Position numbers and translations under genes: made by a program. This document shows positions 39,097 to 63,850 of a stretch of DNA of 64,000 nt, one piece after another. A model generated the notes under the pieces. The model saw nothing but the letters and a program-made list of their open reading frames with translations. It had not been told where the DNA came from and searched no databases. Source of the stretch: a virus. Taxonomy: Duplodnaviria > Heunggongvirae > Uroviricota > Caudoviricetes. How positions within the stretch are numbered: position 1 is the stretch's first letter; every line of letters begins with the position of its first letter. The stretch lies in IMG/VR virus record IMGVR_UViG_3300042892_001069. The stretch is one strand, 5' to 3'.

Positions 39097-39765
39097 TTAC
39101 ACAAATATACAGTCAGTGTCAACCTTCTGTAAGCGGATATAGATCTTTTTGGCTAGCAATTTTAATATTGGGTGATCTAAAGAATGAAATTGTCCATAAT
39201 ACGCACTTAGACATGGACTAACATATTGATCGTTGAATTTGAGTTTACATAAACTGTTGAACTTAGTCATGTAGCGTATAGCACGGTACTTGCCCAAACT
39301 TCGACACAATTCGATAGCTATGCTTATAGCATACGCATCAACTTCATCTGGATCAGCTAGATAATCTTTAAATGGACTTCTATTATGATTTGAGTAAACT
39401 TTATGTTTACGTTTAACACTTTGTCTTTGATGTTTGTATTCGTGTACAGTAGCATCGAATATTTGTATTAGGAATTCTGTTACTTGCTGTTGATCCCATA
39501 GTAACGATTTATTGAAGTTGTGATGTACTATTACTTCAATTGGTATTTCATTATTATGATCGTCTTCGGCATCGTAGTACGCATTAACGTAAAATTCTTC
39601 TGAGTTGAGTTTTTTATCTCTATCAGATTTTATCTTAAGATTAAAATTGTACTCGCGAAACTCGCGACGTAACAATGTCAGTAACTGCTGGAAACTTATG
39701 CCTAACTTACTTTTGGCTTTAACTCGATTACAAACTAAGCAAACGGTTTCCATAATACTGTTCAT
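39097..39765 (-). CDS. HExxH protein, paralog of 30048-30776 (222 aa)
   Basis: VHEYKHQRQ (HExxHxRQ) and LADPDEVDAYAISIA motif shared with paralog. Confidence 0.45.
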   Translation of the reverse strand: MNSIMETVCLVCNRVKAKSKLGISFQQLLTLLRREFREYNFNLKIKSDRDKKLNSEEFYVNAYYDAEDDHNNEIPIEVIVHHNFNKSLLWDQQQVTEFLIQIFDATVHEYKHQRQSVKRKHKVYSNHNRSPFKDYLADPDEVDAYAISIAIELCRSLGKYRAIRYMTKFNSLCKLKFNDQYVSPCLSAYYGQFHSLDHPILKLLAKKIYIRLQKVDTDCIFV

Positions 39766-39767: not shown

Positions 39768-39986
39768 TTACAACCTATAAGTTACTCTACCCTTAGTCAA
39801 ATCGTATGGACTGACTTCTACTCGCACATTATCTCCTAAGATAATTCGAATTTTGTGTTGTTTTAATTTTCCACCCATGTAACACAATAAAGGTTTAGGC
39901 ATATTTTCTACTTTAACCCTAAACATGTTACCTGGTAGTACTTCCTCTACTTCACCAACTAATTCAATAATGTCGTCTTTGGCCAT
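39768..39986 (-). CDS. infA: Translation initiation factor IF-1 (S1/OB fold)
   Basis: 72 aa colinear with bacterial IF-1: ...GEVEEVLPGNMFRVKVENM...KLKQHKIRIILGDNVRVEVSPYDLTKGRVTYRL. Confidence 0.85.
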   Translation of the reverse strand: MAKDDIIELVGEVEEVLPGNMFRVKVENMPKPLLCYMGGKLKQHKIRIILGDNVRVEVSPYDLTKGRVTYRL

Positions 39987-40186
39987 TACGGTTTGCTGAT
40001 GACAATTGCGCCATCTTCAATTTGAATGTTTAACGTATCACCATTCTTCCACCCATTGCGTTCTAATAGTTCCGGAGGAAGCTTCATTATAACATTATCC
40101 GGATCACCGGGGATGTCTTCAAAAATGTCTTCTACGTTATATATATGTTTTTCCATGCTGTTATTTACCACGTTATTTGTCATCAC
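39986..40186 (-). CDS. AbrB/MazE/SpoVT-fold small protein (66 aa)
   Basis: C-terminal IMKLPPELLERNGWKNGDTLNIQIEDGAIVISKP matches swapped-hairpin consensus. Confidence 0.45.
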   Translation of the reverse strand: MMTNNVVNNSMEKHIYNVEDIFEDIPGDPDNVIMKLPPELLERNGWKNGDTLNIQIEDGAIVISKP

Positions 40187-40751
40187 TATATGGAACTGGT
40201 CTCCAACCTAACCGATTAAGATCTAACTCAATTTCTTCAGTGACTTGACCTTCGGGTACGTAATCACGGCCGGCAGGGTCCGCAGTAGGTTCATAATGAT
40301 CTAAACCAAAACCAGCTTCTTTATTACCAATACCGCTACAGTACCAATCAATGTAGTCGCCCTTTTCTTGCATATCGGCAATTATACCACCAGCATGTCT
40401 CCAACTGCATGACCAAGTTTCGCCCTTCATCTCTTGCCAAAACTCTCTGCTTTGCCAATCCATGTTACACATTGCGGCATACAAATTTTGCGCATAGTTG
40501 TCAGACTCTTTAACCTTATCACATAGTTCTTTACTACTACGGAGGTCGTACTCCATGTTGTTCTTTTGCCAAGCGGGATCGTGAATCTTGTTAGCTTCAT
40601 CAATCTTGATCTGATCCCACATGTCAATGTATGCTTGGTTAGGCTCTTCACCCTTTTCTTCTGCCCGCTTGATTGCGCCTTCTTTTTGAAAAGTATTTCG
40701 CTCAGGACTTGATGCTACTTTTTTCATTAATGGAAACTGCCTTGGAAACAA
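40173..40751 (-). CDS. Hypothetical Trp-rich protein (192 aa)
   Basis: ORF track. Confidence 0.4.
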   Translation of the reverse strand: MFPRQFPLMKKVASSPERNTFQKEGAIKRAEEKGEEPNQAYIDMWDQIKIDEANKIHDPAWQKNNMEYDLRSSKELCDKVKESDNYAQNLYAAMCNMDWQSREFWQEMKGETWSCSWRHAGGIIADMQEKGDYIDWYCSGIGNKEAGFGLDHYEPTADPAGRDYVPEGQVTEEIELDLNRLGWRPVPYSDDK

Positions 40752-41047
40752 TGTCGGACTTCGTGACCTACATCGTGAAGGGTAGGAGTGTTACTAGTAA
40801 TAATAGTACAGACATTGCCTTCCCAAAAAGAGCAAGCATATACAGTATAACCAAACCCACCTAACTTACGTTTTTTACTTTCAACTTCACAGGTAGCTTG
40901 TACGTTGGACACCCGCAACCAAGTGATAGTTGATTTTTCTATATTAAGAGTACGGGCATTAAATGGTTTTTCGGGATTAGCCCAATCTGGCTTTGCCATG
41001 GCTGATAAACTTACTACTGCTAAAAGTATTGCTAGTGCCTTTTTCAT
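40727..41047 (-). CDS. Secreted small protein with signal peptide (106 aa)
   Basis: MKKALAILLAVVSLSAMAKPDW; RBS agagg. Confidence 0.5.
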   Translation of the reverse strand: MKKALAILLAVVSLSAMAKPDWANPEKPFNARTLNIEKSTITWLRVSNVQATCEVESKKRKLGGFGYTVYACSFWEGNVCTIITSNTPTLHDVGHEVRHCFQGSFH

Positions 41048-41071
41048 ATAAACCTCTGTGTGTAGTTAAAA

Positions 41072-41182
41072 TGGTGTAGACGGTAGGATTCGAACCTACA
41101 AAGTCGCCCTAAGGGCTAGACCCTATCCCTCCGTTCGCCGAAGCTACTAGGAGGAGGTATACCAAGTTCCACTCACGTCCAC
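41072..41182 (-). ncRNA. 111-nt tRNA-like structured RNA (non-canonical interior); possibly a T4 species-1/2-like stable RNA, Y-RNA-like, or divergent tRNA
   Basis: Canonical T-arm GTAGG-TTCGAAT-CCTAC; 3' acceptor strand CGTCTAC + A + encoded CCA; 5' GTGGACG pairs 7/7 with one G-U; interior (76 nt) has CUUCGG tetraloop hairpin and CCUCC/GGAGG helix; no cloverleaf. Confidence 0.5.
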
Positions 41183-41188
41183 ATAATA

Positions 41189-41217
41189 ATTATATAGTCG
41201 TTTCTACCAAATGTCAA
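41189..41217 (-). promoter_or_regulatory. Consensus sigma70 promoter TTGACA-17-TATAAT with predicted TSS at 41182 (first G of the tRNA-like RNA)
   Basis: Minus-strand read TTGACAtttggtagaaacgactaTATAATtattatG. Confidence 0.55.
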
Positions 41218-41256: not shown

Positions 41257-42111
41257 ATGAAAATTGAATACCCGTACAACGATTGGACACCAGTAGTTTT
41301 TGGTGATGTTAGGACCTTTACCGATGCTGACATACAACAGTTAGGGGTTGCTCTAGCTGAAGAAATTATGGTCTTATTCAGAGGCCAAACCTTAACTCCC
41401 CAAGAAGAAGTTGATTTTGGTGCTCGATTTGGCACCTTAGAAGACAAATCGATTGTTAATGCTAAAAACAAACGAGCAATTAATATTGACGGTATGGGCG
41501 GGCTAATTAGTCGGGTAACTGGCAAATTGAATGAAGACGGAATGCCGGGAATACACGGCGGTGTATCTGCGTTAGATTGGCACTGTAATAGAGCTTGGGA
41601 TAAGAACAGAGATCCTGTTGTGTATTTGTACAGCGTCGAAGGTAGCGCAGGAAGTAAGACCAGCTGGGGGAATTATGTAAAAGCATATAACGAATTACCT
41701 CAGGAGTGGAAAGATCGACTTGCCAATCTTAAAGTTAAGACTGCCCAAACATACAGTAAGTATTCTGAGATGGGGAAATATTTTGGAGTTCCAGATCAAC
41801 CAAGTAATTGGTCAGTTAATATTATTACAAAAAATCCTGCGGGGAAAACTGTTATATTCTTTCCGTGGAATCAAATGGATGGCATTGCGGATGTATCCCC
41901 TGAAGAAGATAAAGAAATTACCGACTTCTTAATAAATTATCTACTACAAGAAAAATTCACTTACCATCACGATTGGGAAGACGGTGATATCATTATTGCT
42001 GACCAGTGGAGCGGAATGCACAAACGCTGGGAATTTGAAAAGATGGCAGAACGAGTTTTACATAGAATGGCATTCAACTATGATAAAATTCGCCTGCCAA
42101 ATCAAACTTAA
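41257..42111 (+). CDS. TauD/TfdA-family Fe(II)/2-oxoglutarate dioxygenase (284 aa)
   Basis: LDWHCNRAWD (WHxD-type) and C-terminal IIADQWSGMHKRWEF (DNRxxxHxR-type). Confidence 0.6.
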   Translation: MKIEYPYNDWTPVVFGDVRTFTDADIQQLGVALAEEIMVLFRGQTLTPQEEVDFGARFGTLEDKSIVNAKNKRAINIDGMGGLISRVTGKLNEDGMPGIHGGVSALDWHCNRAWDKNRDPVVYLYSVEGSAGSKTSWGNYVKAYNELPQEWKDRLANLKVKTAQTYSKYSEMGKYFGVPDQPSNWSVNIITKNPAGKTVIFFPWNQMDGIADVSPEEDKEITDFLINYLLQEKFTYHHDWEDGDIIIADQWSGMHKRWEFEKMAERVLHRMAFNYDKIRLPNQT

Positions 42112-43466
42112 TCTTTAGAAAACTTCCTTGACAACAGGTATCCAATTAAAGGAATACCTAGTCCACACAGCATAGCATATAAATCAAACTCGGGAGTTTT
42201 AGTCATCTTTGATTGTATTGAAAAATACAAGGCCGATGCTATTCCTAAAATTGACGAGTAGAAAATCCAGTTTTCACTTAACTTTCTATCTAGTGCGTGT
42301 AATACTAGCGGCACAAACATAGTGGCTCTAACAGCAGACATTAATACAAATAGCGTCCAGATATCAATCTTAAGCCACGACACTAACCAGACCGCAATTA
42401 AAAATCCAAACATGAACAGTCTAGATACTCCAACGCTTTCTTTGTGGGTCCAGTCAATTGACCCTAGACTTGCGATATAGTTTAACGCTGAATCAATAAC
42501 AGTAGATGCTTGTCCAATTAGTAAAATACCAAATATTAATAATCCACCTACACCTACATAGGTTCCGATGCTAGTTAACGTAGCAAAGTCTGGAGAAGTT
42601 ATAGCAATACCGTTACTAAATGCTAGTAAACTTAGTGATCCAAGAAAAAACACAATTACAGCAAACACCGCAGATGCTGTCAAGTAACTGGGTATAATAT
42701 TTTCTCGGGGCATACTAAATGCCTTTTGCCACATCATACCGTGACTAGTTGCTCCTACAATCATTGTAATAACGTAGGTAATACCAAACGTGGTTAAGAA
42801 TTTCCAATCTAGTACAGATTCAAGATTGTTCTGCCCTAGTGTAAAAATTCCATTGTCAGTAGCATTCATACCGATGATAGCACATGTTACAAAGAATATT
42901 ACCCACGCAGCCGATTGAAATGCTCCGGAGAACACACTGGTCCTAATACCGCCACGCATAGTGAATACCAATGTAATAACACCCACAGCTAGCGTAGCGT
43001 AGTAAGGGGCAATAGAATTGATTCCAGCAAATGCCCAAAACTTTTCAATCGCAATAAACGCTAACAAGATTGCGTAAAATGATACTAAGATAAAGTCTAA
43101 TTGATACAAGCCGCTAAGACGTTTGCTAAAATTATCTTGAATGTATTTTGTTAACGAATACCCGTCTGGATACTTGTTCCTGATCTTGTATGATATTAAT
43201 CCAACAACCGCAATGCTTAGGGCGTTAGGAATTACAAACCAAATTAGTCCATATAATCCCCATTTGTAAGCAACCGCTGGTCCAACAAACATTGCAATGG
43301 CAAAGAACCAGTGGCTACAAATAGCCAAACTTGATTCGGCAATTCGTAGTGATCGATTAGCAAATAAAAAATTGGTAAACGTAGAGCTCCATTGTTTACC
43401 TAATATAAATGTAGTCCCTAAAATACCCAATAAAAATATTAATGAGTAGGTAGTTAAGTGTTCCAT
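42108..43466 (-). CDS. Multi-pass membrane transporter, sodium:solute-symporter-like (452 aa)
   Basis: ~12 hydrophobic helices; late promoter TATAAATA upstream. Confidence 0.5.
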   Translation of the reverse strand: MEHLTTYSLIFLLGILGTTFILGKQWSSTFTNFLFANRSLRIAESSLAICSHWFFAIAMFVGPAVAYKWGLYGLIWFVIPNALSIAVVGLISYKIRNKYPDGYSLTKYIQDNFSKRLSGLYQLDFILVSFYAILLAFIAIEKFWAFAGINSIAPYYATLAVGVITLVFTMRGGIRTSVFSGAFQSAAWVIFFVTCAIIGMNATDNGIFTLGQNNLESVLDWKFLTTFGITYVITMIVGATSHGMMWQKAFSMPRENIIPSYLTASAVFAVIVFFLGSLSLLAFSNGIAITSPDFATLTSIGTYVGVGGLLIFGILLIGQASTVIDSALNYIASLGSIDWTHKESVGVSRLFMFGFLIAVWLVSWLKIDIWTLFVLMSAVRATMFVPLVLHALDRKLSENWIFYSSILGIASALYFSIQSKMTKTPEFDLYAMLCGLGIPLIGYLLSRKFSKD

Positions 43467-43487
43467 GTCAAATCCTTTTAAGTGGAA

Positions 43488-43495
43488 TATTTATA
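43488..43495 (-). promoter_or_regulatory. T4-type late promoter TATAAATA (minus), 21 nt upstream of transporter ATG (43466)
   Basis: Plus strand tatttata; RBS aaaagga. Confidence 0.4.
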
Positions 43496-43506
43496 GCGAT
43501 AAGTAG

Positions 43507-44439
43507 TTGATGTACGCACATTATGGAATCAACTACGATCCGACCAACTTTAAAATCTGGTATTCTCATTGCCAACGTCCGTCAGCTACGTGGACAGAGG
43601 AGATTAAAAAATCTGCTCAAATGTTAGCAGACTCAACTGATCGAGATATATGGATATGTATGAGTGGCGGAATTGATAGCGAAGTTGTTGCTAAAACATT
43701 TAAAGATTTGGGAATACCATTTCGTGCGTTAATAGCTCAGTTTCCAGACAAGTTAAACGAGCATGACATTGTGTATGCTCGTCGATGGTGCGAGTATCAC
43801 AATGTTGAATATAAATTGTTTGACTTTGACATGCTGAACTTTATAAAACAAGGCCACACTAAGTATCTTAAAGATGGACTAGTATCCAATAATATCTTTA
43901 GGTATTTTTGTATAGAGATGTTACAATGTATTGAAGACATGAACGGTTTTGGAATACTAGGTGGAAAGAGTGTTGGACTTGGGCTATTACAAAAAGATAA
44001 AGATATTGTAGATCCCAACAATGATCCAATTTACGACAGTTATGATATTGGATCATTAGCACCAATAGAATGGTGCCGTAGAAACAATCTTAATCATTGT
44101 GTTTTCTTTTATCAAACAAGTTCAGAAATACACAAGGCTTACTTAAATGATCCTATCAATCAAATGTTAATCAATAATCCCTATATGTTGCGAGCTTCAT
44201 CAGCTAACGAAGCCGCCAAGACATTAATGATGAGATCACATTTTCCGTTTACTGTGCCAAGAACAAAGCATCATGGCTTTGAAAAAATTATGGGTATTAG
44301 GGAAGAAGCACAGAAAAATATGGCTAGGTACTTTGGTCTTGATCCAGAGACTGATAACAAACGTTTTAAGTTTGTATTTTACAATGACCATATATCTATT
44401 CCCATAGGACACGTATTGGACCAATTACATTATGAATAA
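43507..44439 (+). CDS. PP-loop (SGGxDS) ATP-pyrophosphatase-family enzyme, paralog 1 (310 aa)
   Basis: WICMSGGIDSEVV P-loop; asparagine-synthetase/QueC/amidotransferase-like superfamily. Confidence 0.65.
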   Translation: MMYAHYGINYDPTNFKIWYSHCQRPSATWTEEIKKSAQMLADSTDRDIWICMSGGIDSEVVAKTFKDLGIPFRALIAQFPDKLNEHDIVYARRWCEYHNVEYKLFDFDMLNFIKQGHTKYLKDGLVSNNIFRYFCIEMLQCIEDMNGFGILGGKSVGLGLLQKDKDIVDPNNDPIYDSYDIGSLAPIEWCRRNNLNHCVFFYQTSSEIHKAYLNDPINQMLINNPYMLRASSANEAAKTLMMRSHFPFTVPRTKHHGFEKIMGIREEAQKNMARYFGLDPETDNKRFKFVFYNDHISIPIGHVLDQLHYE

Positions 44440-45079
44440 CCCTCAGATATTATTTGCGCTCAGTAGTTTCCATAGTTTTGATTCACGGCTATTGGTAATA
44501 TCTGATCGTGTATCAATATTAGAATGGCTTCGAGAAACTATTCCAACATATGAGTTTAGAGTTACTACAAACTTGTTGCCAATGAATGGTTACACTAAAG
44601 AACTTACATATACTAATAGTCACCTTTATAAGACTATAGATCAGAATGTAATGTTACAGAGTAATGCTAACAGCGAGATTGTAGAAATGAGCAACTTATG
44701 CAGATCGTGGTACGAAGGTTATATTAAAATTAATAACACAATTAGTCATCAGCGCAAACATTTGGGCGCCATGTGGATGTTTTCCTTACAAGATGTAGTG
44801 TACCAAGAAAAAGTTAAAGAAGCAGAAAAAGTATTAAACAACCAAACGGAAGATTTGAAATTCCTTCCATCAGAAGCAGGTTATAAAAAGATGTCTCTTC
44901 GAGAGCTAGCCGACCGAGTATTAGTAGAACACGAAATTGCGATGGGCTTCCTAGCAAGAACTGAACACTTGCGAGTCAAGTGGCTTGACACTTTGAAAGC
45001 ATCAACTAGCATTGCTAAACACAAAGAGATCCTAGTAGGGTTTAATAGAGAATTATATGAATACCATCTCATGTCCTAA
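44432..45079 (+). CDS. Hypothetical protein (215 aa)
   Basis: ORF track. Confidence 0.4.
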   Translation: MNNPQILFALSSFHSFDSRLLVISDRVSILEWLRETIPTYEFRVTTNLLPMNGYTKELTYTNSHLYKTIDQNVMLQSNANSEIVEMSNLCRSWYEGYIKINNTISHQRKHLGAMWMFSLQDVVYQEKVKEAEKVLNNQTEDLKFLPSEAGYKKMSLRELADRVLVEHEIAMGFLARTEHLRVKWLDTLKASTSIAKHKEILVGFNRELYEYHLMS

Positions 45080-46181
45080 TATTTTATTGTTTAACAGTAT
45101 TGTAGCCGAGGAACAGTTTAGAGGGTTGCCCGGGGTACATCAGTGGTCTAAGACTAGAAAAATTTGGGGGCATAACGGCTCTATGATTGATCGCACTGGT
45201 GTAGTACAGTTGCCGTTTAAAACAGAATTTTTAGATTCTATGCGGATTCCAGACATCCCTCAGAATTTTTCAAAAACATTAGAACAATGTTGTGTTGAAC
45301 ACGCACGGACAATAGTCGACCAAGCAGTGGGTACAGATCAAACAATTTCTATACTATGGTCCGGCGGCATTGATTCTACATGTGCGGTGTCTAGTTTCTT
45401 AATGTGTACTACTGCCCAAGAACGCACCCGTATCACAATCTTACTTAACAGAGAAAGCATTCTTGAAAATACTAAGTTTTATCAAACACACTTGGTAGGG
45501 AAATTAAATTGTAAAAGTAGCAACACTTGGGAATCATATATACGTCCAAATAACATATTTGTCACAGGTGAAGGTGGCGACCAGGTCTGCTGGAACGGGT
45601 TTACTAGAGCATCGGATACTATATTCAATGTACTAGGATGGGATACGCTTAAACAGTTTGCCAGTGCCGACTTAATGATCAAGGTACTTGAAATGGTAAG
45701 CCTTGATAAAGAGTCGGCAACTATAGGGTATGAGCGTGTGCTTGAACCCCTAAGGCAAAACTCAGTTGTTCCTGTAAATACAGTCGGCCAGCTATTATGG
45801 TATTTTAACTTTGCCGCTAAATGGCAAAACGTGTATCTTAGAACACTGCTAAACTTAGTAGACAACTCTGTCATAACTGATAACTATATAGCAACGAATT
45901 TTAAAATGTTTTTCCAAAGCAGTGATATACAAATTTGGACTATGTTAAACAATGAAAGCACAGTGTTAGTTAACAAGTTTACAGACATCAAGATGCCGTT
46001 AAAGCAAGTAACATATCAGTATGATAAAGATGAATACTACAGAGAGCATAAAGTAAAAATTGGAAGTCTAGGACGATTATCACGTATGCGTCCTAATATA
46101 GGGTATTTAAAATCTAACTGGGAGTTTTCTCCAACAGTTGATATTGACCAGTATTACAATAACCAGAATAGTTTTATTTGA
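45057..46181 (+). CDS. PP-loop ATP-pyrophosphatase-family enzyme, paralog 2 (374 aa)
   Basis: ILWSGGIDSTCAV. Confidence 0.65.
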   Translation: MNTISCPNILLFNSIVAEEQFRGLPGVHQWSKTRKIWGHNGSMIDRTGVVQLPFKTEFLDSMRIPDIPQNFSKTLEQCCVEHARTIVDQAVGTDQTISILWSGGIDSTCAVSSFLMCTTAQERTRITILLNRESILENTKFYQTHLVGKLNCKSSNTWESYIRPNNIFVTGEGGDQVCWNGFTRASDTIFNVLGWDTLKQFASADLMIKVLEMVSLDKESATIGYERVLEPLRQNSVVPVNTVGQLLWYFNFAAKWQNVYLRTLLNLVDNSVITDNYIATNFKMFFQSSDIQIWTMLNNESTVLVNKFTDIKMPLKQVTYQYDKDEYYREHKVKIGSLGRLSRMRPNIGYLKSNWEFSPTVDIDQYYNNQNSFI

Positions 46182-47623
46182 TGAATAAAAAAGGTAAAGA
46201 CATAATCATATGGACCGGCATTCCTAAAAGGTTGCCACAAAAGGTCATCGGGGCTTACCAAGTAGCACATTGGGTACGCCAGCACGGTTATACCGCACAA
46301 GTGATTGATCATATTCACAGATGGGACACTGAAACTATTGTGTCTATGACTGAGCACTTTATTGGTACTGAAACTGTAGCAGTTGGGCTTAGTGCTACAT
46401 TTATGTTCACGGTAGGTGAAACTGTATCATACAAAGATTCAGATATTCCAGAAGCTGCCTTTCCTCGAGCTATCGCAGTTCTAAAAGCCAAATATCCAAA
46501 GATTAAATTTATACTAGGTGGCGCAAGTGTACGACTAGACTTGTACGAACATAGTGATTTGTTTGATATTAAGTTAGGTGGGTTTGGTGAAGAGACTATT
46601 ATAGATACTATGGCTAAATTAAAGACCGGCGGTATACACAAGCGGCCACCGGATATATTTGATATTACTAAGGCATCGCATAGATGGCATAGTGATGACA
46701 TTATCCAGCCAGGTGAGGCACTACCTATTGAGATTGGTCGAGGGTGTATTTTCAAATGTAAATTTTGTCGTTACAGATTAACAGGTAAAGCTAAAGGAAC
46801 ATACTTACGAAGTATGGATTGTATCAAAGAAGAGATTCTTGATAACTATGAGAAATTTGGAACAACTCGTTACTTTTTATTAGACGATACGTTTAATGAA
46901 GATGTTGATAAAATTACTGCTTGGTATAAGATGTCCCAGTCTTTGCCTTTTAAAATTGAGTCAACTGCCTATACACGGGCTGACCTAGTGTGGTCAACTC
47001 CCGAAACAGCTCACATGCTACAAGAAGGTGGCCTAGTTAGTACGTTCCTTGGGATTGAATCATTCCATCCTAAAGCTAGTATGGCTGTGGGTAAGGGGTG
47101 GATGGGCAAGCACGGTAAAACTTGGTTGCCACATCTTAAGGATGATTTATGGAAAGGCCAAATGTCCATAACTATGGGATTTATTGTAGGACTACCGGGT
47201 GAGCCAGTAGACAGTATGTACGAATCTCAAAAATGGTTAGTTGATAATAAAATTAACAGTTGGAGATTTAGAACTTTACAAATTACCCCTAACGCTCAAG
47301 ATTACGATGACGTTAGCGAATTTGAAAGAGACGTTGCAAAGTACGGTTATTCATTTCCATATGCTGATGATCCAAATAAATGGAAAACTGATATTATGGA
47401 TAAGAATCGTGCTAACGAAATACAAGATGACATGTTAGCTAAATCTCGACCGTACATGCGCCACAGTTCTTGGGATCTGCCTGCTATGTTAAGTTTGGGG
47501 TATACCTGTGAAGATGTTCATATGAAATACTTTAATAATCCAATTTGGCAAACTAAGACTGATAGGATTCGACAGTTCTTAAAAACCTACAAGCAAATGA
47601 TGTTTGCTATCGATGTAGTTTAA
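46178..47623 (+). CDS. B12-binding-type radical SAM enzyme (481 aa)
   Basis: EIGRGCIFKCKFCRY (GCxFxCxFC); N-terminal ~170-aa Rossmann-like region consistent with cobalamin-binding domain. Confidence 0.65.
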   Translation: MMNKKGKDIIIWTGIPKRLPQKVIGAYQVAHWVRQHGYTAQVIDHIHRWDTETIVSMTEHFIGTETVAVGLSATFMFTVGETVSYKDSDIPEAAFPRAIAVLKAKYPKIKFILGGASVRLDLYEHSDLFDIKLGGFGEETIIDTMAKLKTGGIHKRPPDIFDITKASHRWHSDDIIQPGEALPIEIGRGCIFKCKFCRYRLTGKAKGTYLRSMDCIKEEILDNYEKFGTTRYFLLDDTFNEDVDKITAWYKMSQSLPFKIESTAYTRADLVWSTPETAHMLQEGGLVSTFLGIESFHPKASMAVGKGWMGKHGKTWLPHLKDDLWKGQMSITMGFIVGLPGEPVDSMYESQKWLVDNKINSWRFRTLQITPNAQDYDDVSEFERDVAKYGYSFPYADDPNKWKTDIMDKNRANEIQDDMLAKSRPYMRHSSWDLPAMLSLGYTCEDVHMKYFNNPIWQTKTDRIRQFLKTYKQMMFAIDVV

Positions 47624-48735
47624 AGTTTGCCTATAGTGAATGCTGGAGTTCTGCTTGATTTTAAAGAAGCACCCTCTCCATGATAGCTGTTGTTGATACC
47701 ATCTAACAATCCATTGTAATGATACTTCCATGCGTCAATAGTTCTTTCAAACTCTGGATTTTCATATAACCAAAAATCTCTATCAGTACGTGCAGCAGTA
47801 GTAGGCTTTCCAGCTTGAAACTTGTTTAAGTCCCATGTATCTTTGTAACAGATACGCTTGGTTAATTCGTTGTTATATTCTACTATAGTATTTCTATGAT
47901 GTGCTAAGGGTTCGCGCCACATATATTGTTGAGCTGACGGGTTTTCTTTATAGAACAAAAACATTTGATATGCCATTTCAAAAGGTAACTCTGGCATAGA
48001 TGGTGACCAGTAGAATGGTTCAAATGCGCCTACAGAGTTTGACGCAATATGAAATGTTATGTCAGTAAAATACATACCAACCATTCCATCACCCCAAGTA
48101 GCAACAAACGGTTTATCAAATCCATAAATGCTAGCAACTGTTTTACCCTTGTCAAGCATACTAGTTGCCACCTTTGGCTTATTTAAATTTCTAAGTAATG
48201 CTCCTGCCCCCCAAAATACAGATGTTTCTAAAAATCTATTGTCAGTGTAATAGTGCTCGGATATATTTTCAGACCAATCGCCTATCTCAATATGTATCTC
48301 TGGGTGAGCTGAGCTGAGCCATTTGAGAGTTGGCTCGACAACAAGGTCCCACTCACTGAGCAAATTTTTAGCTGTTATATCTTGAGTGTTTGGAACATAC
48401 ACTCCGTTACGTATTGTGTGCTTAGGCCAATTAACGTATATTTGATCTAATTTAATGCCATTGTTAATAAATGACATTAGAATAGTGTGACTATCTGCGC
48501 CGCCCGAATAAAATAATACTAGGTGATCGTAAGTATCTCTCAGTTGCTGAGCACGTTGCTTGTACAGCATGGACAACGATTGAGTACCCATAAGAGTTCT
48601 ATCAAAGCTAGCAAACACATGATTATGCCAGTTCCATTTTATATCAGGACATCCGTTAGTACTAGCATACAATACTGCCTCTCTCTTATTAGTAAAGGTG
48701 GTATCTCCAACGGTCCATGTGCCCCAACTACTCAT
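47620..48735 (-). CDS. PP-loop ATP-pyrophosphatase-family enzyme, paralog 3 (371 aa)
   Basis: LVLFYSGGADSHTILMSF; close paralog of 52946-54100. Confidence 0.65.
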   Translation of the reverse strand: MSSWGTWTVGDTTFTNKREAVLYASTNGCPDIKWNWHNHVFASFDRTLMGTQSLSMLYKQRAQQLRDTYDHLVLFYSGGADSHTILMSFINNGIKLDQIYVNWPKHTIRNGVYVPNTQDITAKNLLSEWDLVVEPTLKWLSSAHPEIHIEIGDWSENISEHYYTDNRFLETSVFWGAGALLRNLNKPKVATSMLDKGKTVASIYGFDKPFVATWGDGMVGMYFTDITFHIASNSVGAFEPFYWSPSMPELPFEMAYQMFLFYKENPSAQQYMWREPLAHHRNTIVEYNNELTKRICYKDTWDLNKFQAGKPTTAARTDRDFWLYENPEFERTIDAWKYHYNGLLDGINNSYHGEGASLKSSRTPAFTIGKL

Positions 48736-48737
48736 TG

Positions 48738-49043
48738 TTAGTTGATAGTTTCTGTAATTTCTGAAACAATTCCGTTAACTAAATTGTATTCTTGTCTCTC
48801 GGCCCAACCTAGCTTTGAAGTTCTTATTTCATGATAGTTGGCATAATTTTCTACAGTGTCAAATACAATAGTAAAAATACGTGTATTATTGTCAACTACT
48901 TCCATGGCATTGCTCACGCATCCCGGTAGTACTCGAATCTGTTCGTTAAATGTTTTAAGCATTTGGCTATTCTGTTCGCTAACTTCACCAAAAAATTGTG
49001 TGTTTGCTGGCTTAGTACTAGTGATTTTTAATGTAACTGGCAT
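48738..49043 (-). CDS. Hypothetical small protein (101 aa), possibly ABM/Dabb-like alpha+beta fold
   Basis: ORF track; size/composition only. Confidence 0.35.
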   Translation of the reverse strand: MPVTLKITSTKPANTQFFGEVSEQNSQMLKTFNEQIRVLPGCVSNAMEVVDNNTRIFTIVFDTVENYANYHEIRTSKLGWAERQEYNLVNGIVSEITETIN

Positions 49044-49074
49044 GTTACTGATCTCCTAAAAGTATATTTATCAG

Positions 49075-50517
49075 TCAGTAATTCATTGATCTGCTAAGAT
49101 AGGTTGTGACTAATTGTTCGTTAAGATTGTCTTTAATGATTCGTTGATTCATTTCGTAGTATGTGGTGTTTAATACATCTTTATAACTAAATCCAAAATT
49201 TCTAATAGCAGAGAGATTCCATACACTGGGTACTCGATGTTGCTCAGTACGTTGTTTAAACTTGTTACACCATGCTCCTGCTCTAGCTTCAGTCATAAAG
49301 TCAGTTTCCCATTTGCCGCCTACAAATCGATACCCGTGTTTTTCAGGCTCTCTTTCAAAATCACTCATTGCTAGAGTAGGTGACAAGTATAACTTGTTAT
49401 AGTGAAAGTCGTGTACTCTTGATTTAAAATACCATTCAGTTGAGTCGTCCCAATCTTTTTCAGTTTCCTGTCCGAGACCAGCTATCATAGAACATCTAAC
49501 TATAACATCATCGCCCCATAGCTCTCCAATTTGCGTAAGCGCAGGTTTATAGTTCTTAGCACCCCACCCCTTACCAATCATGTTACACGATATTGGATCA
49601 AAAGATTCTATGCCAAAGTGACAGCTGACTAAACCAGACTCTGGCAATGATTCAAACTGTTCTGGCCAAATGTTTATTAAATCTAATCTAGCATATCCAA
49701 TGTATTCTATTTTAAAAGGTAAGTCCTTGGTCATTTCAAAGAACTTCTGTGTACGTATACGATGTGCGTTTAACGTATCATCAGTAATATGATATCGTGT
49801 TGTTCCAAATAAATTGTAATTTGATATCAGAGATTCTCTAATACACTCCATCGATTTGTTAAAGTCATCCTTATCCTTGCCAATATTAGGGTATTGACAA
49901 AACTTGCATTTAAAAATACACCCCCTGCTTAACTCTAATGGGAGAGATTCGCCTGGCAGTATAAAATCATTCTCGGCAAACTTCATAGTACAAGTTTGTA
50001 TATCAAATGTGTTCACAGAGCTGGGATGAAATACTCTATTACCGGAACCAATTTGAAATACTGGTGCTACTTCGTTTTTAAATACATGATTACAATACTC
50101 TAAAAAAGAATTTTCAGATTCATCTTTAAAAACTGCGTCAACTTTAAAAGCAAGCCGTTTATGGCCATACCATAAAAATCCTCTAACAAACTGGCCTCCT
50201 ATTACAATTTTAACCCACGGAAAATTGTCTTTGATTTCGTTAAGTATATCAAAGACAGGGCCTTCGCCCTCAGTAATAATTTGTGGACTGTCTAACATTA
50301 CAAAGGGAGAAAATCCAACAATCTTTGTTTCTGTGGTTATATACTTTTTAAATAAAGCAAGACGTTGCTCACTAGTCATAAAATATAAAAAGTCTAACAC
50401 TTGGGTACTGTAACCGTTAGTCCGTAGCCACCAAGCAATTTGATAAGGCCCTAAGTATCGAACCTGGCGTAACGGATTAGTATCAGTTGTTAATATTACT
50501 ACTTGCATTGCTGACAA
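49075..50517 (-). CDS. B12-binding-type radical SAM enzyme, paralog of 46178-47623 (480 aa)
   Basis: ELSRGCIFKCKFCQY; colinear with paralog. Confidence 0.65.
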   Translation of the reverse strand: MSAMQVVILTTDTNPLRQVRYLGPYQIAWWLRTNGYSTQVLDFLYFMTSEQRLALFKKYITTETKIVGFSPFVMLDSPQIITEGEGPVFDILNEIKDNFPWVKIVIGGQFVRGFLWYGHKRLAFKVDAVFKDESENSFLEYCNHVFKNEVAPVFQIGSGNRVFHPSSVNTFDIQTCTMKFAENDFILPGESLPLELSRGCIFKCKFCQYPNIGKDKDDFNKSMECIRESLISNYNLFGTTRYHITDDTLNAHRIRTQKFFEMTKDLPFKIEYIGYARLDLINIWPEQFESLPESGLVSCHFGIESFDPISCNMIGKGWGAKNYKPALTQIGELWGDDVIVRCSMIAGLGQETEKDWDDSTEWYFKSRVHDFHYNKLYLSPTLAMSDFEREPEKHGYRFVGGKWETDFMTEARAGAWCNKFKQRTEQHRVPSVWNLSAIRNFGFSYKDVLNTTYYEMNQRIIKDNLNEQLVTTYLSRSMNY

Positions 50518-51112: not shown

Positions 51113-51113
51113 G

Positions 51114-52046: not shown

Positions 52047-52106
52047 ACTGTATTTTATCACTTTTTGATAATATTTCCTACGATTGTGGCAGGCCATAAA
52101 TAACAG

Positions 52107-54527: not shown

Positions 54528-54571
54528 CAGCTATTTATTTTAGCAGCCTTACGGTATAAAATAAATATCTC

Positions 54572-56880: not shown

Positions 56881-56903
56881 ACGATATTTACTTAAATACT
56901 ACC

Positions 56904-62371: not shown

Positions 62372-63850
62372 TTACAGAGCGTAACGATCACTCATTACAG
62401 TCTTAAGCATGATGCCTTCTGGAGTGAACTGATCCAAATCAGCGGCTAGCAAGCTAGTCATTATACTTGGGCTAAATCCACTTACCAATGCGGCACCACT
62501 CTTGTCTGACGCAACAGGTACGTTGTCTGAACTATTTAGGTTCCAGAAAACAATCTGTGGCATGCTGTAGCCAGCGGCTTCGAACTTGCGTTCGATCATT
62601 TCCATTGCGCTGTCGTCGTGCTTGGCGCATTGGTTGAACTGCATATCTGACAAGATTAGCAACATGGCTGGCATGTCGCTAGCTGGAACTGAACCCTTAA
62701 CCGCAACGCTTAGGATCTTGTCCATAGCGGCATGCAGGTTAGTGCTCATTTCCCAATCACTCTTAGACATTTGATCAACCTTGTCAACAATGTTACCCTT
62801 TAGAGTAACAAGTTGTGGCTTGTCTGAGAAAGTCAAGAATGTGTCCTTGAACACGCCCTTGTTCTTATCTGCTAGGTACAAGCCCAAGCTGATCGAAACA
62901 TCCATACATGTTACCGAAGTGTTCTTTCCTGCTGGGCAAGACATAGAACCGCTAACGTCTACGATCGGCATGATGCTAGCATCTCCAACGTAGTTTGGCA
63001 AAGCATCCCACTGTGCCACAATGTGGTCAGTAGCAGTCTTGTCCAACTTAGTACGATAACTTCCGATAACACCCTTCAACACATCATGTGGAAAGATTGC
63101 GCTGGCGTTAACCTTAACAGTCTTGTCTCCACTTACCAACTTGGCAACATACTCTGCGAACAGAGGAGTGTGACGGCTGAATGCCTTCTTGTAGTTGCGC
63201 GAAGCAACAGATGGTACGTGACTAAAGTTGATGTTATCCCAATCACCTGCACACATTTGGGTTTCAACAACTGTGGTCATTGTTACCAATGACTTGCGGT
63301 ACTGCTTTGGAGTCATTCCGAAGAATGCTCGTACTTCAGCCGCAATCTTGCCCTTACGAGGAGTCCACTTTGCAGCCAGACCGTTCTTAGCACGAAGGGC
63401 ATCACCCAACATGGTATAAGCGGCTGACTTCAACACTGGTGAAGTGAAGACAAAGATGTCATCCCAACGGCCCACTTCTGGAACCTTCTTCAACAGAGCC
63501 AAAGCGGCGTCTGGGTCACGCTTTTCTAGATGAACTAGAATGTCGCGGAACAATTGACGTTCACCGGCACCACCACGGACATCACGTGCCCATTGTGCGA
63601 TGCGTAGTGCTACGTCAGAGTTTTCTACATAAGCGGCTGTGAAGTCGCCTGTGATGTCCTTACCACGGCTTGCGCCAATGTTATAGAACAAGTCAACACA
63701 AGCCGAAGCTGTTGACTTACGTGCCTTCATACCGTTTGCGGTACGGGCTTCTTGGTTCGCTACTGCTGTTACAAATGCGTTCATTTCGATTACCTTTACA
63801 GAATGTGTTTTTTTTCGATATGCTTGAAAATTTAAAGTTGCTGTTAACAT
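62372..63850 (-). CDS. vWA-domain protein with MIDAS DVSGSM; helical N-terminal domain possibly TROVE/Ro60-like or DUF2828-like (likely start MNAFVTAV at 63784)
   Basis: IMPIVDVSGSMSC MIDAS motif at ~residue 300; N-terminal ~280 aa alpha-helical. Confidence 0.55.
   Translation of the reverse strand: MLTATLNFQAYRKKTHSVKVIEMNAFVTAVANQEARTANGMKARKSTASACVDLFYNIGASRGKDITGDFTAAYVENSDVALRIAQWARDVRGGAGERQLFRDILVHLEKRDPDAALALLKKVPEVGRWDDIFVFTSPVLKSAAYTMLGDALRAKNGLAAKWTPRKGKIAAEVRAFFGMTPKQYRKSLVTMTTVVETQMCAGDWDNINFSHVPSVASRNYKKAFSRHTPLFAEYVAKLVSGDKTVKVNASAIFPHDVLKGVIGSYRTKLDKTATDHIVAQWDALPNYVGDASIMPIVDVSGSMSCPAGKNTSVTCMDVSISLGLYLADKNKGVFKDTFLTFSDKPQLVTLKGNIVDKVDQMSKSDWEMSTNLHAAMDKILSVAVKGSVPASDMPAMLLILSDMQFNQCAKHDDSAMEMIERKFEAAGYSMPQIVFWNLNSSDNVPVASDKSGAALVSGFSPSIMTSLLAADLDQFTPEGIMLKTVMSDRYAL

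What the first reader, a model, noticed from the sequence alone, without database searches (positions are those of the whole stretch)
41072..41217. 111-nt tRNA-like RNA with perfect T-arm, acceptor stem and CCA but non-cloverleaf interior, fired from its own consensus promoter with TSS at its 5' end
Reverse-complementing 41072-41182 gives 5'-GUGGACG...GUAGG-UUCGAAU-CCUAC-CGUCUAC-A-CCA-3'. The T-arm is canonical, and the 7-bp acceptor stem pairs with one G-U. The 76-nt interior cannot form D and anticodon arms. It instead contains a C(UUCG)G tetraloop hairpin inside a CCUCC/GGAGG helix and a second AGGG/CCCU hairpin. A TTGACA-17-TATAAT promoter puts the predicted +1 exactly on the first G. The element therefore looks like a discrete primary transcript, not a tRNA fragment left at an attachment site. 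It may be analogous to the T4 species 1/2 stable RNAs or to tRNA-mimicking bacterial Y RNAs. A vWA protein that may be Ro60-like is encoded at 62372-63850.
Basis: partly seen in the sequence, partly recalled or inferred. Interest (0 to 1): 0.7.

Follow-up and report, generated by a model that had tools for sequence, protein, structure and literature searches.

The report
Anticodon-less tRNA mimic of freshwater phages
This is a real, widespread and apparently undescribed phage RNA that keeps every part of a leucine-type tRNA except the anticodon, so it can meet the cell's tRNA-handling enzymes but cannot read codons; what it does is still unknown.

Summary
On the minus strand, 41182->41072 encodes a 111-nt RNA with a 7-bp acceptor stem, a canonical T arm and ACCA. 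A perfect TTGACA-17-TATAAT promoter ends 6 nt upstream. ARAGORN and Rfam 15 call nothing there.

It belongs to a large family: more than 230 loci and 116 distinct sequences, all in uncultured freshwater phage contigs and in none of 185,579 bacterial or archaeal species genomes. Covariation supports four helices: acceptor, an anticodon-arm equivalent capped by a stable tetraloop (P2), a long variable arm (P3) and the T arm. No anticodon is conserved. The D loop is tRNA-Leu-like and A73 is invariant.

In relatives, a second subtype sits inside arrays of 26-38 tRNA genes, each copy with its own promoter. In the window the RNA heads an operon that encodes a small secreted HExxH protein, an unknown protein (p166), a MazE-like protein and an IF-1 homolog.

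My best reading is a trans-acting, non-decoding class II tRNA mimic, probably a LeuRS substrate (confidence about 0.4). The Y-RNA reading fails its RNA tests. The DUF2828 protein is only weakly Ro60-like. The closest analogue is T4 RNAC, whose function is also unknown.

The parts
41212..41217 (-). -35 hexamer TTGACA
   Evidence: 12/12 promoter. Across 128 distinct loci it reads TTGACA in 86 and TTGACT in 41.
41189..41194 (-). -10 hexamer TATAAT; 17-nt spacer from the -35; 6 nt (41183-41188) before RNA nt 1
   Evidence: The spacer is 17 nt in 127 of 128 loci, and 6 nt separate the -10 from nt 1 in 122 of 128.
41072..41182 (-). The 111-nt tRNA-like RNA (type A): G1 at 41182, A76 at 41072
   Evidence: sequence. 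(model R1, 129.7 bits, the only copy in the window). (covariation).
41176..41182 (-). Acceptor stem, 5' strand GUGGACG (G3 makes a G.U with U70)
   Evidence: 6 of 7 acceptor pairs show compensatory changes in the diverse set. Pair 3-70 is A-U in 70, G-C in 12 and G.U in 6 of 88 members.
41155..41175 (-). U8 G9 plus the D region AGUG-GAACUUGGUAU-ACCU. The D loop is Leu-type (A14 A15, G18 G19, U20 A20a). The D stem is degenerate (A10-U25, G11-C24, U12.C23).
   Evidence: Nearly invariant in 66-88 members that were not selected on this segment. The same GUGGAAU(U)GGUAGAC occurs in a related phage's tRNA-Leu. The stem register is supported by subtype B, which has AGC/GCU.
41127..41155 (-). P2, the anticodon-arm equivalent: (U)CCUCC/GGAGG(G) helix, an AGUA/GAA internal loop, then GC-UUCG-GC cap. 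No anticodon loop.
   Evidence: 4 of 6 pairs covary. Length varies from a 4-5-bp stem with a CUUG cap to about 35 nt. ARAGORN 'anticodons' are inconsistent.
41102..41122 (-). P3, the long variable arm: GGUC/GACU outer helix and GCCC-UUA-GGGC inner hairpin
Evidence: 7 of 8 pairs covary and 99.9% of cells pair.
41083..41099 (-). T arm GUAGG-UUCGAAU-CCUAC, preceded by U48
   Evidence: Compensatory variants GCAGG/CCUGC, GAAGG/CCUUC and GGAAG/CUUCC occur.
41072..41082 (-). Acceptor stem 3' strand CGUCUAC, discriminator A73, and encoded CCA
   Evidence: A73 is invariant. The 3' end is ACCA in 85 and ACCG in 3 of 88 members. Some subtype B members encode no CCA.
41048..41071 (-). U-rich trailer UUUUAAC... 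with the Shine-Dalgarno sequence AGAGG; no terminator
   Evidence: The trailer starts with at least 3 U in 81 of 128 loci, and the first ATG lies mostly 20-30 nt after the CCA.
40727..41047 (-). First ORF of the operon: a 106-aa secreted protein with 4 Cys and an HExxH(x6)H motif (mini metalloprotease-like)
   Evidence: It follows the RNA in 135 of 156 distinct loci. It has no significant Pfam match (only an E = 0.087 CbtB hit, far below that family's cut-off) and no match in cultured phages.
40173..40727 (-). p166, a protein of unknown function and the gene most tightly linked to the RNA
   Evidence: Present in 136 of 156 loci and in 52 of 52 RNA-positive protease-anchored loci. It directly follows the RNA where the protease gene is absent. 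In distant relatives it follows true tRNA genes. No Pfam, PDB or fold match.
39986..40186 (-). MazE/AbrB-like small protein
   Evidence: PF04014, E 1.4e-6.
39768..39986 (-). Translation initiation factor IF-1 homolog in the same operon
   Evidence: TIGR00008 infA, 87.4 bits against a cut-off of 61. (PF01176). Present in 117 of 156 RNA loci.
62372..63850 (-). DUF2828/DUF7788 protein on the same strand: a possible but unproven Ro60-like partner
   Evidence: In 19 of 80 DUF2828-anchored loci a family RNA lies within 10 kb on the same strand.

Best explanation
The element is a phage gene for a non-decoding, class II (leucine-type) tRNA mimic.

Shown.
- It folds into an acceptor stem, a tRNA-Leu-like D loop, a long variable arm and a T arm.
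- The anticodon arm is replaced by a helix of variable length closed by a stable tetraloop. No anticodon is conserved.
- It derives from phage tRNA genes. In relatives it sits inside tRNA arrays, or where true tRNAs precede the same downstream gene.
- A consensus sigma-70 promoter is kept at a fixed distance from nt 1.

Inferred.
- Transcription starts on G1, giving a leaderless 5'-triphosphate end that needs no RNase P.
- The 3' end is released from the operon or tRNA-array transcript by the host's tRNA 3'-processing enzymes. The CCA-adding enzyme completes it where CCA is not encoded.
- The RNA then acts in trans through its conserved upper half and core.

Most likely mechanism. The host LeuRS recognises it and probably leucylates it. 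It keeps, invariant, every element known to matter for bacterial LeuRS: A73, U8:A14, A15-U48, G18G19, A20a and the D/T-loop contacts. Bacterial LeuRS needs neither the anticodon nor the variable arm. Once charged it would be an aminoacyl-tRNA look-alike that cannot decode. It would serve the phage's early takeover programme as a leucyl donor or sink, or as an occupant of tRNA-binding factors. The downstream target is unknown.
For: Structure. In 88 distinct sequences 99.8% of pair cells are standard pairs, and in the 28-sequence diverse set 97.5% are. 17 to 19 of 26 pairs have compensatory changes, 0 of 500 shuffles reach this, and slid controls pair 38-52% of cells.

No anticodon: ARAGORN calls only the short members, as Pro, Ser, Gly, Gln, Arg, Leu or with 4-nt anticodons. 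P2 caps are UUCG, CUUG, GCAA and others, and P2 length varies.

tRNA origin and Leu type.
- R1 scores best on T4 tRNA-Leu (34 bits), then tRNA-Ser (28 bits).
- The D loop GUGGAAU(U)GGUAGAC equals that of a related phage's tRNA-Leu.
- Subtype B lies between tRNA-Arg and tRNA-Ser(gct) in arrays of 26-38 tRNA genes.
- p166 follows tRNA-Leu(UAA) or tRNA-Arg in distant relatives.

Identity elements. A73 is invariant while 6 of 7 acceptor pairs vary. The D region, U48 and the T loop are invariant. PMC9976931 states that for E. coli LeuRS A73, A15-U48, G18G19 and A20a are essential, that D/T-loop tertiary pairs are required, and that tRNA-Leu variants lacking both the anticodon arm and the variable arm remain active.

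Trans rather than cis action. The same RNA precedes an mRNA in type A and a tRNA gene in type B. 26 protease-anchored loci carry the same kind of promoter with no RNA.

3' processing. ACCG ends and ends with no encoded CCA imply repair by the CCA-adding enzyme.

Promoter and +1.

Translation context: an IF-1 homolog lies in the same operon.
Against: No expression, end-mapping or charging data exist; the metagenome scan returned only DNA assemblies.

The D stem of type A is degenerate (two pairs plus a U.C), so the L-shape and LeuRS recognition are assumed.

R1 does not separate Leu from Ser tRNAs sharply: Ser tRNAs score 22-27 bits.

Subtype B has a different D-loop sequence (AAAUAGGCAAA). It still keeps A14, A15, G18G19 and A20a.

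No aminoacyl-tRNA-dependent transferase was found nearby.

The near-total invariance of the 5' 29 nt exceeds what LeuRS recognition alone explains.

Six of 88 members, the window's copy among them, have G3.U70, which would add alanine identity.

The host is unknown. The only hints are a TctC gene and a Polynucleobacter-binned MAG contig.
Confidence: 0.4

Rival explanations
1. Decoy for tRNA-directed host defence. An abundant tRNA-shaped RNA with a class II body, a long variable arm and an ACCA end soaks up or blocks nucleases or toxins that recognise the tRNA body, variable arm or 3' end. It is useless to, and safe from, anticodon nucleases.
For: These phages invest heavily in tRNA supply: 26-38 tRNA genes per array. 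Some relatives place a P-loop kinase (AAA_33), metallophosphoesterases and a DSPc-like phosphatase between DUF2828 and the RNA. The window encodes an ATP-dependent ligase. A defence system (Septu) that cuts the variable loop of the class II tRNA-Tyr is documented (PMC13096335). Each copy has its own strong promoter.
Against: Catalytic nucleases are poorly titrated by decoys. P3 loop sequences vary freely, which does not fit a sequence-specific variable-loop target. No specific defence system is implicated. The kinase and phosphatase genes are absent from the window.
Confidence: 0.2
2. Y-RNA analogue. The tRNA-like RNA is the RNA partner of the DUF2828/DUF7788 protein, taken as a divergent Ro60. 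It gates or tethers that protein for quality control or repair of the phage's many tRNAs.
For: The top Foldseek hit of the DUF2828 model is human Ro60, aligned over its full length (E 3.6e-3, probability 0.98); the next hits have E of at least 0.08. The protein has a helical N-terminal part and an alpha/beta C-terminal part. A family RNA lies on the same strand within 10 kb of DUF2828 in 19 of 80 anchored loci, as close as 80 nt, in both subtypes. At least 14 contigs carry both. Bacterial YrlA RNAs also mimic tRNA and lie within 4 kb of rsr on the same strand (PMC4201824).
Against: The structure model is of low confidence (pLDDT 50). There is no sequence-level match to any Ro60, including a phage Ro60 present in the PDB (PMC12135203). 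No TROVE domain is found in Pfam. The RNA has tRNA topology, not the YrlA topology. The GNCGAAN0-1G motif occurs in only 16 of 88 members. DUF2828 abuts the whole tRNA array, so proximity may simply reflect array membership. The two are 21 kb apart in the window, and only 2 of 235 RNA loci have DUF2828 within their flanks.
Confidence: 0.15
3. Cis-acting 5' leader. The tRNA-like fold at the 5' end of the early operon mRNA stabilises it, through a paired triphosphate end, or serves only as a processing signal that sets the 5' end of the downstream message.
For: In type A the RNA is always the first 95-119 nt of a transcript. No terminator follows, and an ORF starts 9-32 nt after the CCA. It is tightly syntenic with the protease/p166/IF-1 operon.
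Against: Subtype B has the same design and its own promoter but is followed by tRNA genes, not an mRNA. The protease gene works without the RNA in 26 intact loci. Invariance of A73 and of the Leu-type D loop is not needed for stabilisation or processing.
Confidence: 0.1
4. A true decoding tRNA with an odd or intron-containing anticodon arm, or a decaying tRNA pseudogene, or an attachment-site remnant.
For: ARAGORN calls the short members as tRNAs. The RNA has tRNA ancestry.
Against: The anticodon calls are inconsistent. The pairs closing the tetraloop covary. There is no U33/R37 pattern. 116 distinct sequences keep all helices. The sequence is absent from bacterial genomes. These phages already carry full tRNA sets, including 3-4 tRNA-Leu genes.
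Confidence: 0.03

Closest known systems
Class II tRNA-Leu (bacterial or phage)
   Same: A 7-bp acceptor stem, A73, CCA, U8, a Leu-type D loop (A14 A15 ... G18 G19 U20 A20a), U48, a long variable arm and a UUCGAAU T loop. It is located in or next to phage tRNA arrays. R1's best hit in the T4 tRNA region is tRNA-Leu.
   Different: There is no anticodon loop; P2 is a tetraloop-capped rod of variable length. The type A D stem is degenerate. The variable arm is longer and two-part. The transcript is leaderless, from its own promoter. Rfam's tRNA model scores 14.9 bits against a cut-off of 29.
Phage T4 species 1 and 2 stable RNAs (RNAC/rnaC, RNAD/rnaD)
   Same: Small stable non-decoding RNAs encoded in a phage tRNA gene cluster. 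By my own reading of the sequence shown, the 3' part of rnaC has a tRNA-like T arm and an acceptor-like pairing. Their functions are unknown (PMC3014915, PMC9697503).
   Different: Homology is not demonstrable: 16.5 bits on rnaC and nothing on rnaD. The T4 RNAs are cut out of a polycistronic precursor and carry 5' extensions. They are classed as late RNAs. The design of this family (leaderless, Leu-type core, P2/P3) is not seen in them.
Bacterial Y RNAs (YrlA) with Ro60/Rsr
   Same: A non-decoding RNA with tRNA-like T and D elements, a Levitt pair and possible CCA addition. It is sometimes within 4 kb, on the same strand, of a possibly Ro60-like gene. Phage examples of YrlA exist (PMC4201824).
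   Different: YrlA is circularly permuted relative to tRNA: its ends form the Ro-binding stem and its acceptor-like stem is closed. YrlA carries the GNCGAAN0-1G motif. Here the ends are the acceptor ends with ACCA, and the motif is not conserved. The protein has no TROVE match.
tmRNA tRNA-like domain
   Same: An acceptor stem, a T arm and a D loop without a proper D stem, no anticodon, and a helix in place of the anticodon arm. tmRNA is charged independently of any anticodon.
   Different: There is no tag reading frame and there are no pseudoknots. G3.U70 occurs in only 6 of 88 members. A long variable arm is present. ARAGORN finds no tmRNA here.
Other tRNA mimics (plant-virus 3' TLS, mascRNA, Bacillus cereus tRNA-Other)
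   Same: These use the tRNA shape to recruit tRNA enzymes outside normal decoding.
   Different: They occur in different hosts and genome types, at different positions and with different folds. None is a leaderless anticodon-less class II mimic from a DNA phage. This comparison rests on my own knowledge and was not tested here.

Membership tests
Canonical tRNA (Rfam RF00005 / ARAGORN) | 7-bp acceptor stem, discriminator base, CCA end, and a 5-bp T stem with a 7-nt UUCRANY loop | tested here: met
   Covariation.
Canonical tRNA (Rfam RF00005 / ARAGORN) | Anticodon arm: 5-bp stem and 7-nt loop with U33, and an anticodon conserved within the family | tested here: not met
   P2 is capped by tetraloops and varies in length. 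ARAGORN calls are inconsistent.
Canonical tRNA (Rfam RF00005 / ARAGORN) | Score above the family threshold, or a call by a tRNA finder | tested here: not met
   14.9 bits against a gathering score of 29. ARAGORN finds 0 genes in the window.
Canonical tRNA (Rfam RF00005 / ARAGORN) | D arm with a 3-4-bp stem and G18G19 | tested here: inconclusive
   G18G19 and the loop are invariant. The type A stem is A-U, G-C, U.C; the type B stem is a clean AGC/GCU.
Substrate of bacterial LeuRS (leucine identity set) | A73, U8:A14, A15-U48, G18G19, A20a and intact D/T-loop contacts; anticodon and variable arm not required (PMC9976931) | tested here: met
   All are present and invariant by direct reading of the alignments.
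Substrate of bacterial LeuRS (leucine identity set) | Actual leucylation by LeuRS | not testable with these tools
   Needs an in vitro charging assay or an acid-gel northern blot.
YrlA / bacterial Y RNA | GNCGAAN0-1G (Ro-binding) motif near the 5' end | tested here: not met
   Present in 16 of 88 members, in the 3' strand of P2 in the window's copy, and not conserved.
YrlA / bacterial Y RNA | Permuted topology: the 5'/3' ends form the Ro-binding stem, and the acceptor-like stem is closed by a loop | tested here: not met
   The ends lie at the acceptor stem with ACCA.
YrlA / bacterial Y RNA | Encoded within about 4 kb of a Ro60 (TROVE) gene and on the same strand | tested here: inconclusive
   In the window the RNA is 21 kb from DUF2828. 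In 19 of 80 DUF2828 loci an RNA lies within 10 kb on the same strand. DUF2828 resembles Ro60 only through a weak fold match, with no TROVE match.
YrlA / bacterial Y RNA | Match to an Rfam Y RNA or YrlA model | tested here: not met
   No Rfam family matches at gathering thresholds across the window, and no Y RNA or YrlA match appears at E up to 10 in the 401 nt around the element.
tmRNA | Tag-peptide reading frame, pseudoknots, and G3.U70 alanine identity | tested here: not met
   The RNA is 111 nt with no ORF or pseudoknots. G3.U70 occurs in 6 of 88 members. ARAGORN finds none.
T4 species 1 RNA (rnaC) | Sequence and structure homology to rnaC | tested here: inconclusive
   R1 gives 16.5 bits (E 0.002) on the tRNA-like 3' part of rnaC and nothing on rnaD.
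T4 species 1 RNA (rnaC) | Non-decoding stable RNA encoded within a phage tRNA gene cluster | tested here: met
   Subtype B lies inside arrays of 26-38 tRNA genes. In type A relatives the array and DUF2828 lie a few kb upstream (L294). Stability itself was not tested.

The most novel reading that the evidence does not exclude
A new class of viral tRNA mimic in DNA phages. It would be a leaderless, 5'-triphosphorylated, anticodon-less RNA that host LeuRS charges. The phage would use it outside decoding, as an aminoacyl donor or a regulator of the translation apparatus, possibly together with the co-encoded IF-1, p166 or the Ro60-like DUF2828 protein. That would make it a dedicated non-ribosomal aminoacyl-tRNA look-alike carried by an abundant lineage of freshwater large phages.
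Probability: 0.25. Interest if true: 0.85.

Novelty: new variant of a known kind. Interest (0 to 1): 0.72.

Why it matters
The family is large. I recovered more than 230 loci, and the p166 and DUF2828 families linked to it number in the thousands in lake metagenomes. Its covariation support is among the cleanest one can get, yet it is absent from Rfam 15 and from the literature I could search.

It separates what tRNA-handling enzymes need from what the ribosome needs. This gives a natural experiment on anticodon-independent tRNA recognition.

It gives a tractable handle on a 50-year-old open question: what non-decoding stable RNAs in phage tRNA clusters, such as T4 RNAC and RNAD, are for.

The prediction can be tested cheaply with a 111-nt transcript and purified LeuRS, RNase P, RNase Z and CCA-adding enzyme. 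The promoter is a consensus sigma-70 promoter, so heterologous expression should work.

It also warns annotators. tRNA finders call the short members as tRNA-Pro, Ser, Gly, Arg and others with spurious anticodons.

Tried and rejected
- Single-sequence folding: z = -1.07, and the MFE structure disrupts the T arm. Not informative.
- Rfam at gathering and E-value thresholds: nothing useful.
- Near and distant BLAST against 50,697 cultured phage records: only generic matches to tRNA 3' halves. The protease has no match there.
- Host tRNA or att-site hypothesis: rejected. The 3' 23-mer is absent from 185,579 species genomes.
- Alanine identity through G3.U70: rejected as a family trait. It occurs in 6 of 88 members and looks like an intermediate between A-U and G-C.
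- The GG/CC pairing that RNAalifold placed inside the D loop: I removed it from the model because it clashes with the roles of G18G19.
- YrlA motif: not conserved.
- Metagenome scan for transcript-like contigs: only DNA assemblies.
- p166: profile search against the PDB, an AF2 model (pLDDT 73) and Foldseek all gave nothing.
- DUF2828: phmmer and profile searches against the PDB gave nothing. The AF2 model was poor.
- Supplements of the IMG/VR structured-RNA catalogue (PMC10690425) are not held, so I could not check whether the family is listed there as an unnamed candidate.
- Literature searches for anticodon-less phage tRNA mimics found no description.
Full report
**1. What is in the window**

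The minus strand 41182->41072 reads, 5' to 3': GUGGACG-UG-AGUGGAACUUGGUAUACC-UCCUCCUAGUAGCUUCGGCGAACGGAGGG-AUA-GGGUCUAGCCCUUAGGGCGACU-UU-GUAGGUUCGAAUCCUAC-CGUCUAC-A-CCA.

- TTGACA, 17 nt, TATAAT lies at 41217-41189. It is the only 12/12 promoter match in the 10 kb scanned. Its -10 hexamer ends 6 nt before G1.
- The element sits in a divergent intergenic region. A TauD-like gene runs rightward from 41257.
- The RNA is followed after 24 nt, with no terminator, by a chain of minus-strand ORFs.
- ARAGORN finds no tRNA or tmRNA in all 64 kb. Rfam 15 finds nothing at gathering thresholds. The tRNA model reaches 14.9 bits against a cut-off of 29, on the 3' half only.
- Folding energy alone is unremarkable: z = -1.07.
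- The window is phage DNA, with virion proteins, a DNA ligase and many PHROG matches.

**2. It is a large, conserved family**

- The exact 28-nt 3' end occurs in 100 IMG/VR contigs (the number returned by the scan, possibly a cap) and in 85 freshwater-lake metagenome contigs.
- A 23-mer of the 3' end occurs in none of 185,579 bacterial or archaeal species genomes. This excludes a host tRNA or an attachment-site remnant.
- Every hit has the same anatomy. The 5' 29 nt are almost invariant, although I did not select on them.
- A covariance model (R1) finds one copy in the window, at 129.7 bits.
- Anchoring on the downstream protein brought in members with different acceptor and T stems.
- Anchoring on the DUF2828 protein brought in more divergent members.
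- In total I found about 235 loci and 116 distinct RNA sequences of 95-119 nt.

**3. Structure**

- In 88 distinct sequences, 99.8% of pair cells are standard pairs. 17 of 26 pairs carry changes on both sides. No shuffle of 500 reaches any of the five measures. Slid controls pair only 38-52% of cells.
- In a deliberately diverse set of 28 sequences (types A and B), 19 of 26 pairs covary, including 6 of 7 acceptor pairs.
- The helices are:
  - the acceptor stem;
  - P2, which starts where an anticodon stem would start and is closed by UUCG, CUUG, GCAA or a longer hairpin. In 34 of 88 members it contains an AGUA/GAA internal loop;
  - P3, a two-part long variable arm;
  - the T arm.
- No anticodon is conserved. 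ARAGORN calls only the short members and names them Pro, Ser, Gly, Gln, Arg, Leu or 'four-base' tRNAs. The pairs that close the tetraloop covary.
- The 3' end is ACCA in 85 of 88 members and ACCG in 3. Some type B members encode no CCA at all. That implies trimming followed by the CCA-adding enzyme.
- A73 never varies.
- Pair 3-70 is A-U in 70, G-C in 12 and G.U in 6 of 88 members.

**4. Ancestry**

- R1's best matches in the T4 tRNA region are the two class II tRNAs: Leu at 34 bits and Ser at 28 bits. rnaC (species 1 RNA) reaches 16.5 bits, and rnaD does not match.
- The D-loop string GUGGAAU(U)GGUAGAC is that of a tRNA-Leu from a related phage.
- In relatives the same protease gene lies inside a tRNA array, just after tRNA-Ser.
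- In distant relatives p166 follows tRNA-Leu(UAA) or tRNA-Arg.
- A second subtype, type B (GyrryCG-UAAGCAAAUAGGCAAAGCUC...GGAGGUUCGAAGCCUCC...), lies between tRNA-Arg and tRNA-Ser(gct) inside arrays of 26-38 tRNA genes. Each type B copy still has its own TTGACA-17-TATAAT promoter 6 nt upstream.
- Type B has a clean AGC/GCU D stem in the register where type A has AGU/CCU. This fixes the D-stem register of type A as A10-U25, G11-C24, U12.C23.

**5. Promoter and transcript**

- Across 128 distinct loci the promoter scores 12/12 in 64 and at least 10/12 in 127.
- The spacer is 17 nt in 127. The distance from the -10 to RNA nt 1 is 6 nt in 122.
- The inference is a leaderless transcript that starts on nt 1.
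- At the 3' end there is no terminator. The trailer is U-rich in 81 of 128 loci. The next gene starts 9-32 nt later in type A or 7-10 nt later in type B, where it is a tRNA gene.
- Release of a discrete RNA therefore depends on tRNA-type 3' processing. That step is inferred, not shown.

**6. Context**

- In 156 distinct loci the order is: RNA, secreted HExxH mini-protein (135 loci), p166 (136), MazE/AbrB-like protein, IF-1 homolog (117), p221 (108), p228 (92), and so on.
- The window follows this order. Its IF-1 homolog is at 39768-39986 (TIGR00008, 87 bits).
- Among protease-anchored loci, p166 is present in 52 of 52 RNA-positive loci, and IF-1 and p222 in 47 of 52. All three are absent from the 26 intact RNA-negative loci, which carry the same kind of promoter directly before the protease gene.
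- This is a lineage block. It suggests a translation-directed early module but does not prove a functional link.
- p166 is a huge family (at least 7,998 homologs) with no Pfam, PDB or fold match.

**7. The Ro60 / Y-RNA idea**

- The protein at 62372-63850 has DUF2828 plus DUF7788. PHROGs labels it 'RNA-binding protein'.
- It is 85-95% identical across more than 120 clusters, including on the 345-kb contig that also carries the RNA.
- It has no TROVE match and no sequence match in the PDB.
- The AlphaFold model is poor (pLDDT 50). Its top Foldseek hit is nevertheless human Ro60, aligned over the full length (E 3.6e-3, probability 0.98), while all other hits have E of at least 0.08. I treat this as a lead, not a result.
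- In 19 of 80 DUF2828-anchored loci a family RNA lies within 10 kb on the same strand. It can lie from 80 nt downstream to 5 kb upstream.
- In one lineage a DSPc-like phosphatase, a metallophosphoesterase and an AAA_33 kinase lie between the two.
- DUF2828 abuts the whole tRNA array. Only 2 of 235 RNA-anchored loci contain DUF2828 in their flanks. The kinase and phosphatase genes are missing from the window.
- On the RNA side the YrlA criteria of Chen et al. (PMC4201824) fail. The topology is not permuted, and GNCGAAN0-1G occurs in 16 of 88 members.

**8. Mechanism**

What is conserved is the part of a tRNA that enzymes read: the acceptor end, A73, the D/T elbow and the Levitt pair. What is lost is the part that the ribosome reads.

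The review of tRNA identity (PMC9976931) states the following for E. coli LeuRS:
- A73, A15-U48, G18G19 and A20a are essential, and D/T-loop tertiary contacts are required;
- the anticodon and the long variable arm are not needed;
- tRNA-Leu variants lacking both of those arms are still charged.

Types A and B both keep all of these elements while differing elsewhere in the D loop.

I therefore commit to a trans-acting, non-decoding tRNA-Leu mimic that LeuRS recognises and probably charges (confidence about 0.4). Its downstream use is unknown.

Trans action is favoured for two reasons. The same RNA precedes an mRNA in one lineage and a tRNA gene in another. The protease operon also works without it.

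The rivals, with confidences in brackets, are:
- a decoy for tRNA-directed defence (0.2), consistent with the tRNA-rich, repair-enzyme-rich context and with known cleavage of a class II tRNA variable loop by Septu (PMC13096335);
- a Y-RNA-like partner of DUF2828 (0.15);
- a cis-acting leader (0.1);
- a real tRNA, a pseudogene or an att remnant (0.03).

**9. Comparison and novelty**

- The closest functional analogues are T4 RNAC and RNAD. These are stable RNAs from the T4 tRNA region whose roles remain unknown (PMC3014915, PMC9697503).
- The closest structural relatives are class II tRNA-Leu and the tRNA-like domain of tmRNA.
- The element is a member of none of these families.
- It matches no Rfam 15 family, and I found no description in the searchable literature. 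An unnamed entry in the IMG/VR structured-RNA catalogue (PMC10690425) cannot be excluded.
- I rate it a new variant of a known kind, namely phage-encoded non-decoding tRNA mimics.
- Interest is high because the family is abundant, the structure is secure, and the hypothesis is directly testable.

Noticed in passing
window 40727-41047 (-): A 106-aa secreted protein with a signal peptide, four invariant Cys and a C-terminal HExxHxxxGxxH motif ending at the last residue (mini metalloprotease-like). It has at least 309 relatives in IMG/VR, no significant Pfam match and none in cultured phages. It is always promoter-proximal.
   Followed up: partly
window 39768-39986 (-): A phage-encoded translation initiation factor IF-1 homolog (TIGR00008, 87 bits). 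It is conserved in 117 of 156 RNA loci and lies next to a MazE/AbrB-like 66-aa protein (39986-40186).
   Followed up: partly
window 40173-40727 (-): p166 is a very abundant family (at least 7,998 homologs) of unknown function, with invariant Cys, Trp and Tyr residues. It has no Pfam, PDB or Foldseek match (model pLDDT 73). It is consistently the first or second gene after a tRNA or tRNA-like gene, in distant lineages as well.
   Followed up: partly
window 41257-61217 (both strands): A roughly 20-kb island of enzymes lies between the RNA and DUF2828: two TauD-like dioxygenases, three QueC/Asn-synthase-like PP-loop ATPases, several radical SAM proteins, a fatty-acid desaturase, an Asp/Asn hydroxylase-like protein, a Rieske oxygenase, an NMO-like protein and a TctC-family binding protein. 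Relatives such as L266 and L294 lack this island there. Radical SAM paralogs lie divergent from the RNA promoter in 118 of 156 loci.
   Followed up: no
window 62372-63850 (-): The DUF2828/DUF7788 protein is 85-95% identical across more than 120 sequence clusters, which is unusually conserved for a phage protein. It abuts tRNA arrays in relatives. Its low-confidence model has human Ro60 as the top fold hit.
   Followed up: partly
L312:7410-7501, L329:4913-5004, L294:5013-5104, L292:915-1004: The tRNA arrays of related phages contain a 90-92-nt tRNA called Ile(UAU), with a long variable arm and A73. That is a class II body on an AUA-reading anticodon, unusual for bacteria, and raises the question of which amino acid it carries.
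   Followed up: no
L287, L312, L322, L329, L294 (whole loci): Relatives carry arrays of 26-38 tRNA genes covering nearly all amino acids, all on one strand, ending next to the DUF2828 gene. The window holds no tRNA; any array would have to lie beyond it, perhaps past its right end upstream of DUF2828.
   Followed up: partly
L271:2244-2649: ARAGORN calls a tmRNA (tag ANDEQFALAA) on a phage-like contig binned with a Haliscomenobacter MAG, 0.6 kb downstream of a p166 homolog that itself follows tRNA-Met and tRNA-Arg.
   Followed up: no
window 2600-13822 (-): A single open reading frame of 3,740 codons (GTG start). I did not examine it.
   Followed up: no
window 30267-30656 (-) and 39097-39765 (-): p222, which has an HEYKH motif, has a distant paralog elsewhere in the window (31% identity over 133 aa in tblastn).
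   Followed up: no
L266:754-3513: In one lineage a DSPc-like phosphatase, a metallophosphoesterase and an AAA_33 P-loop kinase lie between DUF2828 and the RNA. This set is reminiscent of RNA end-healing enzymes. It is absent from the window.
   Followed up: partly
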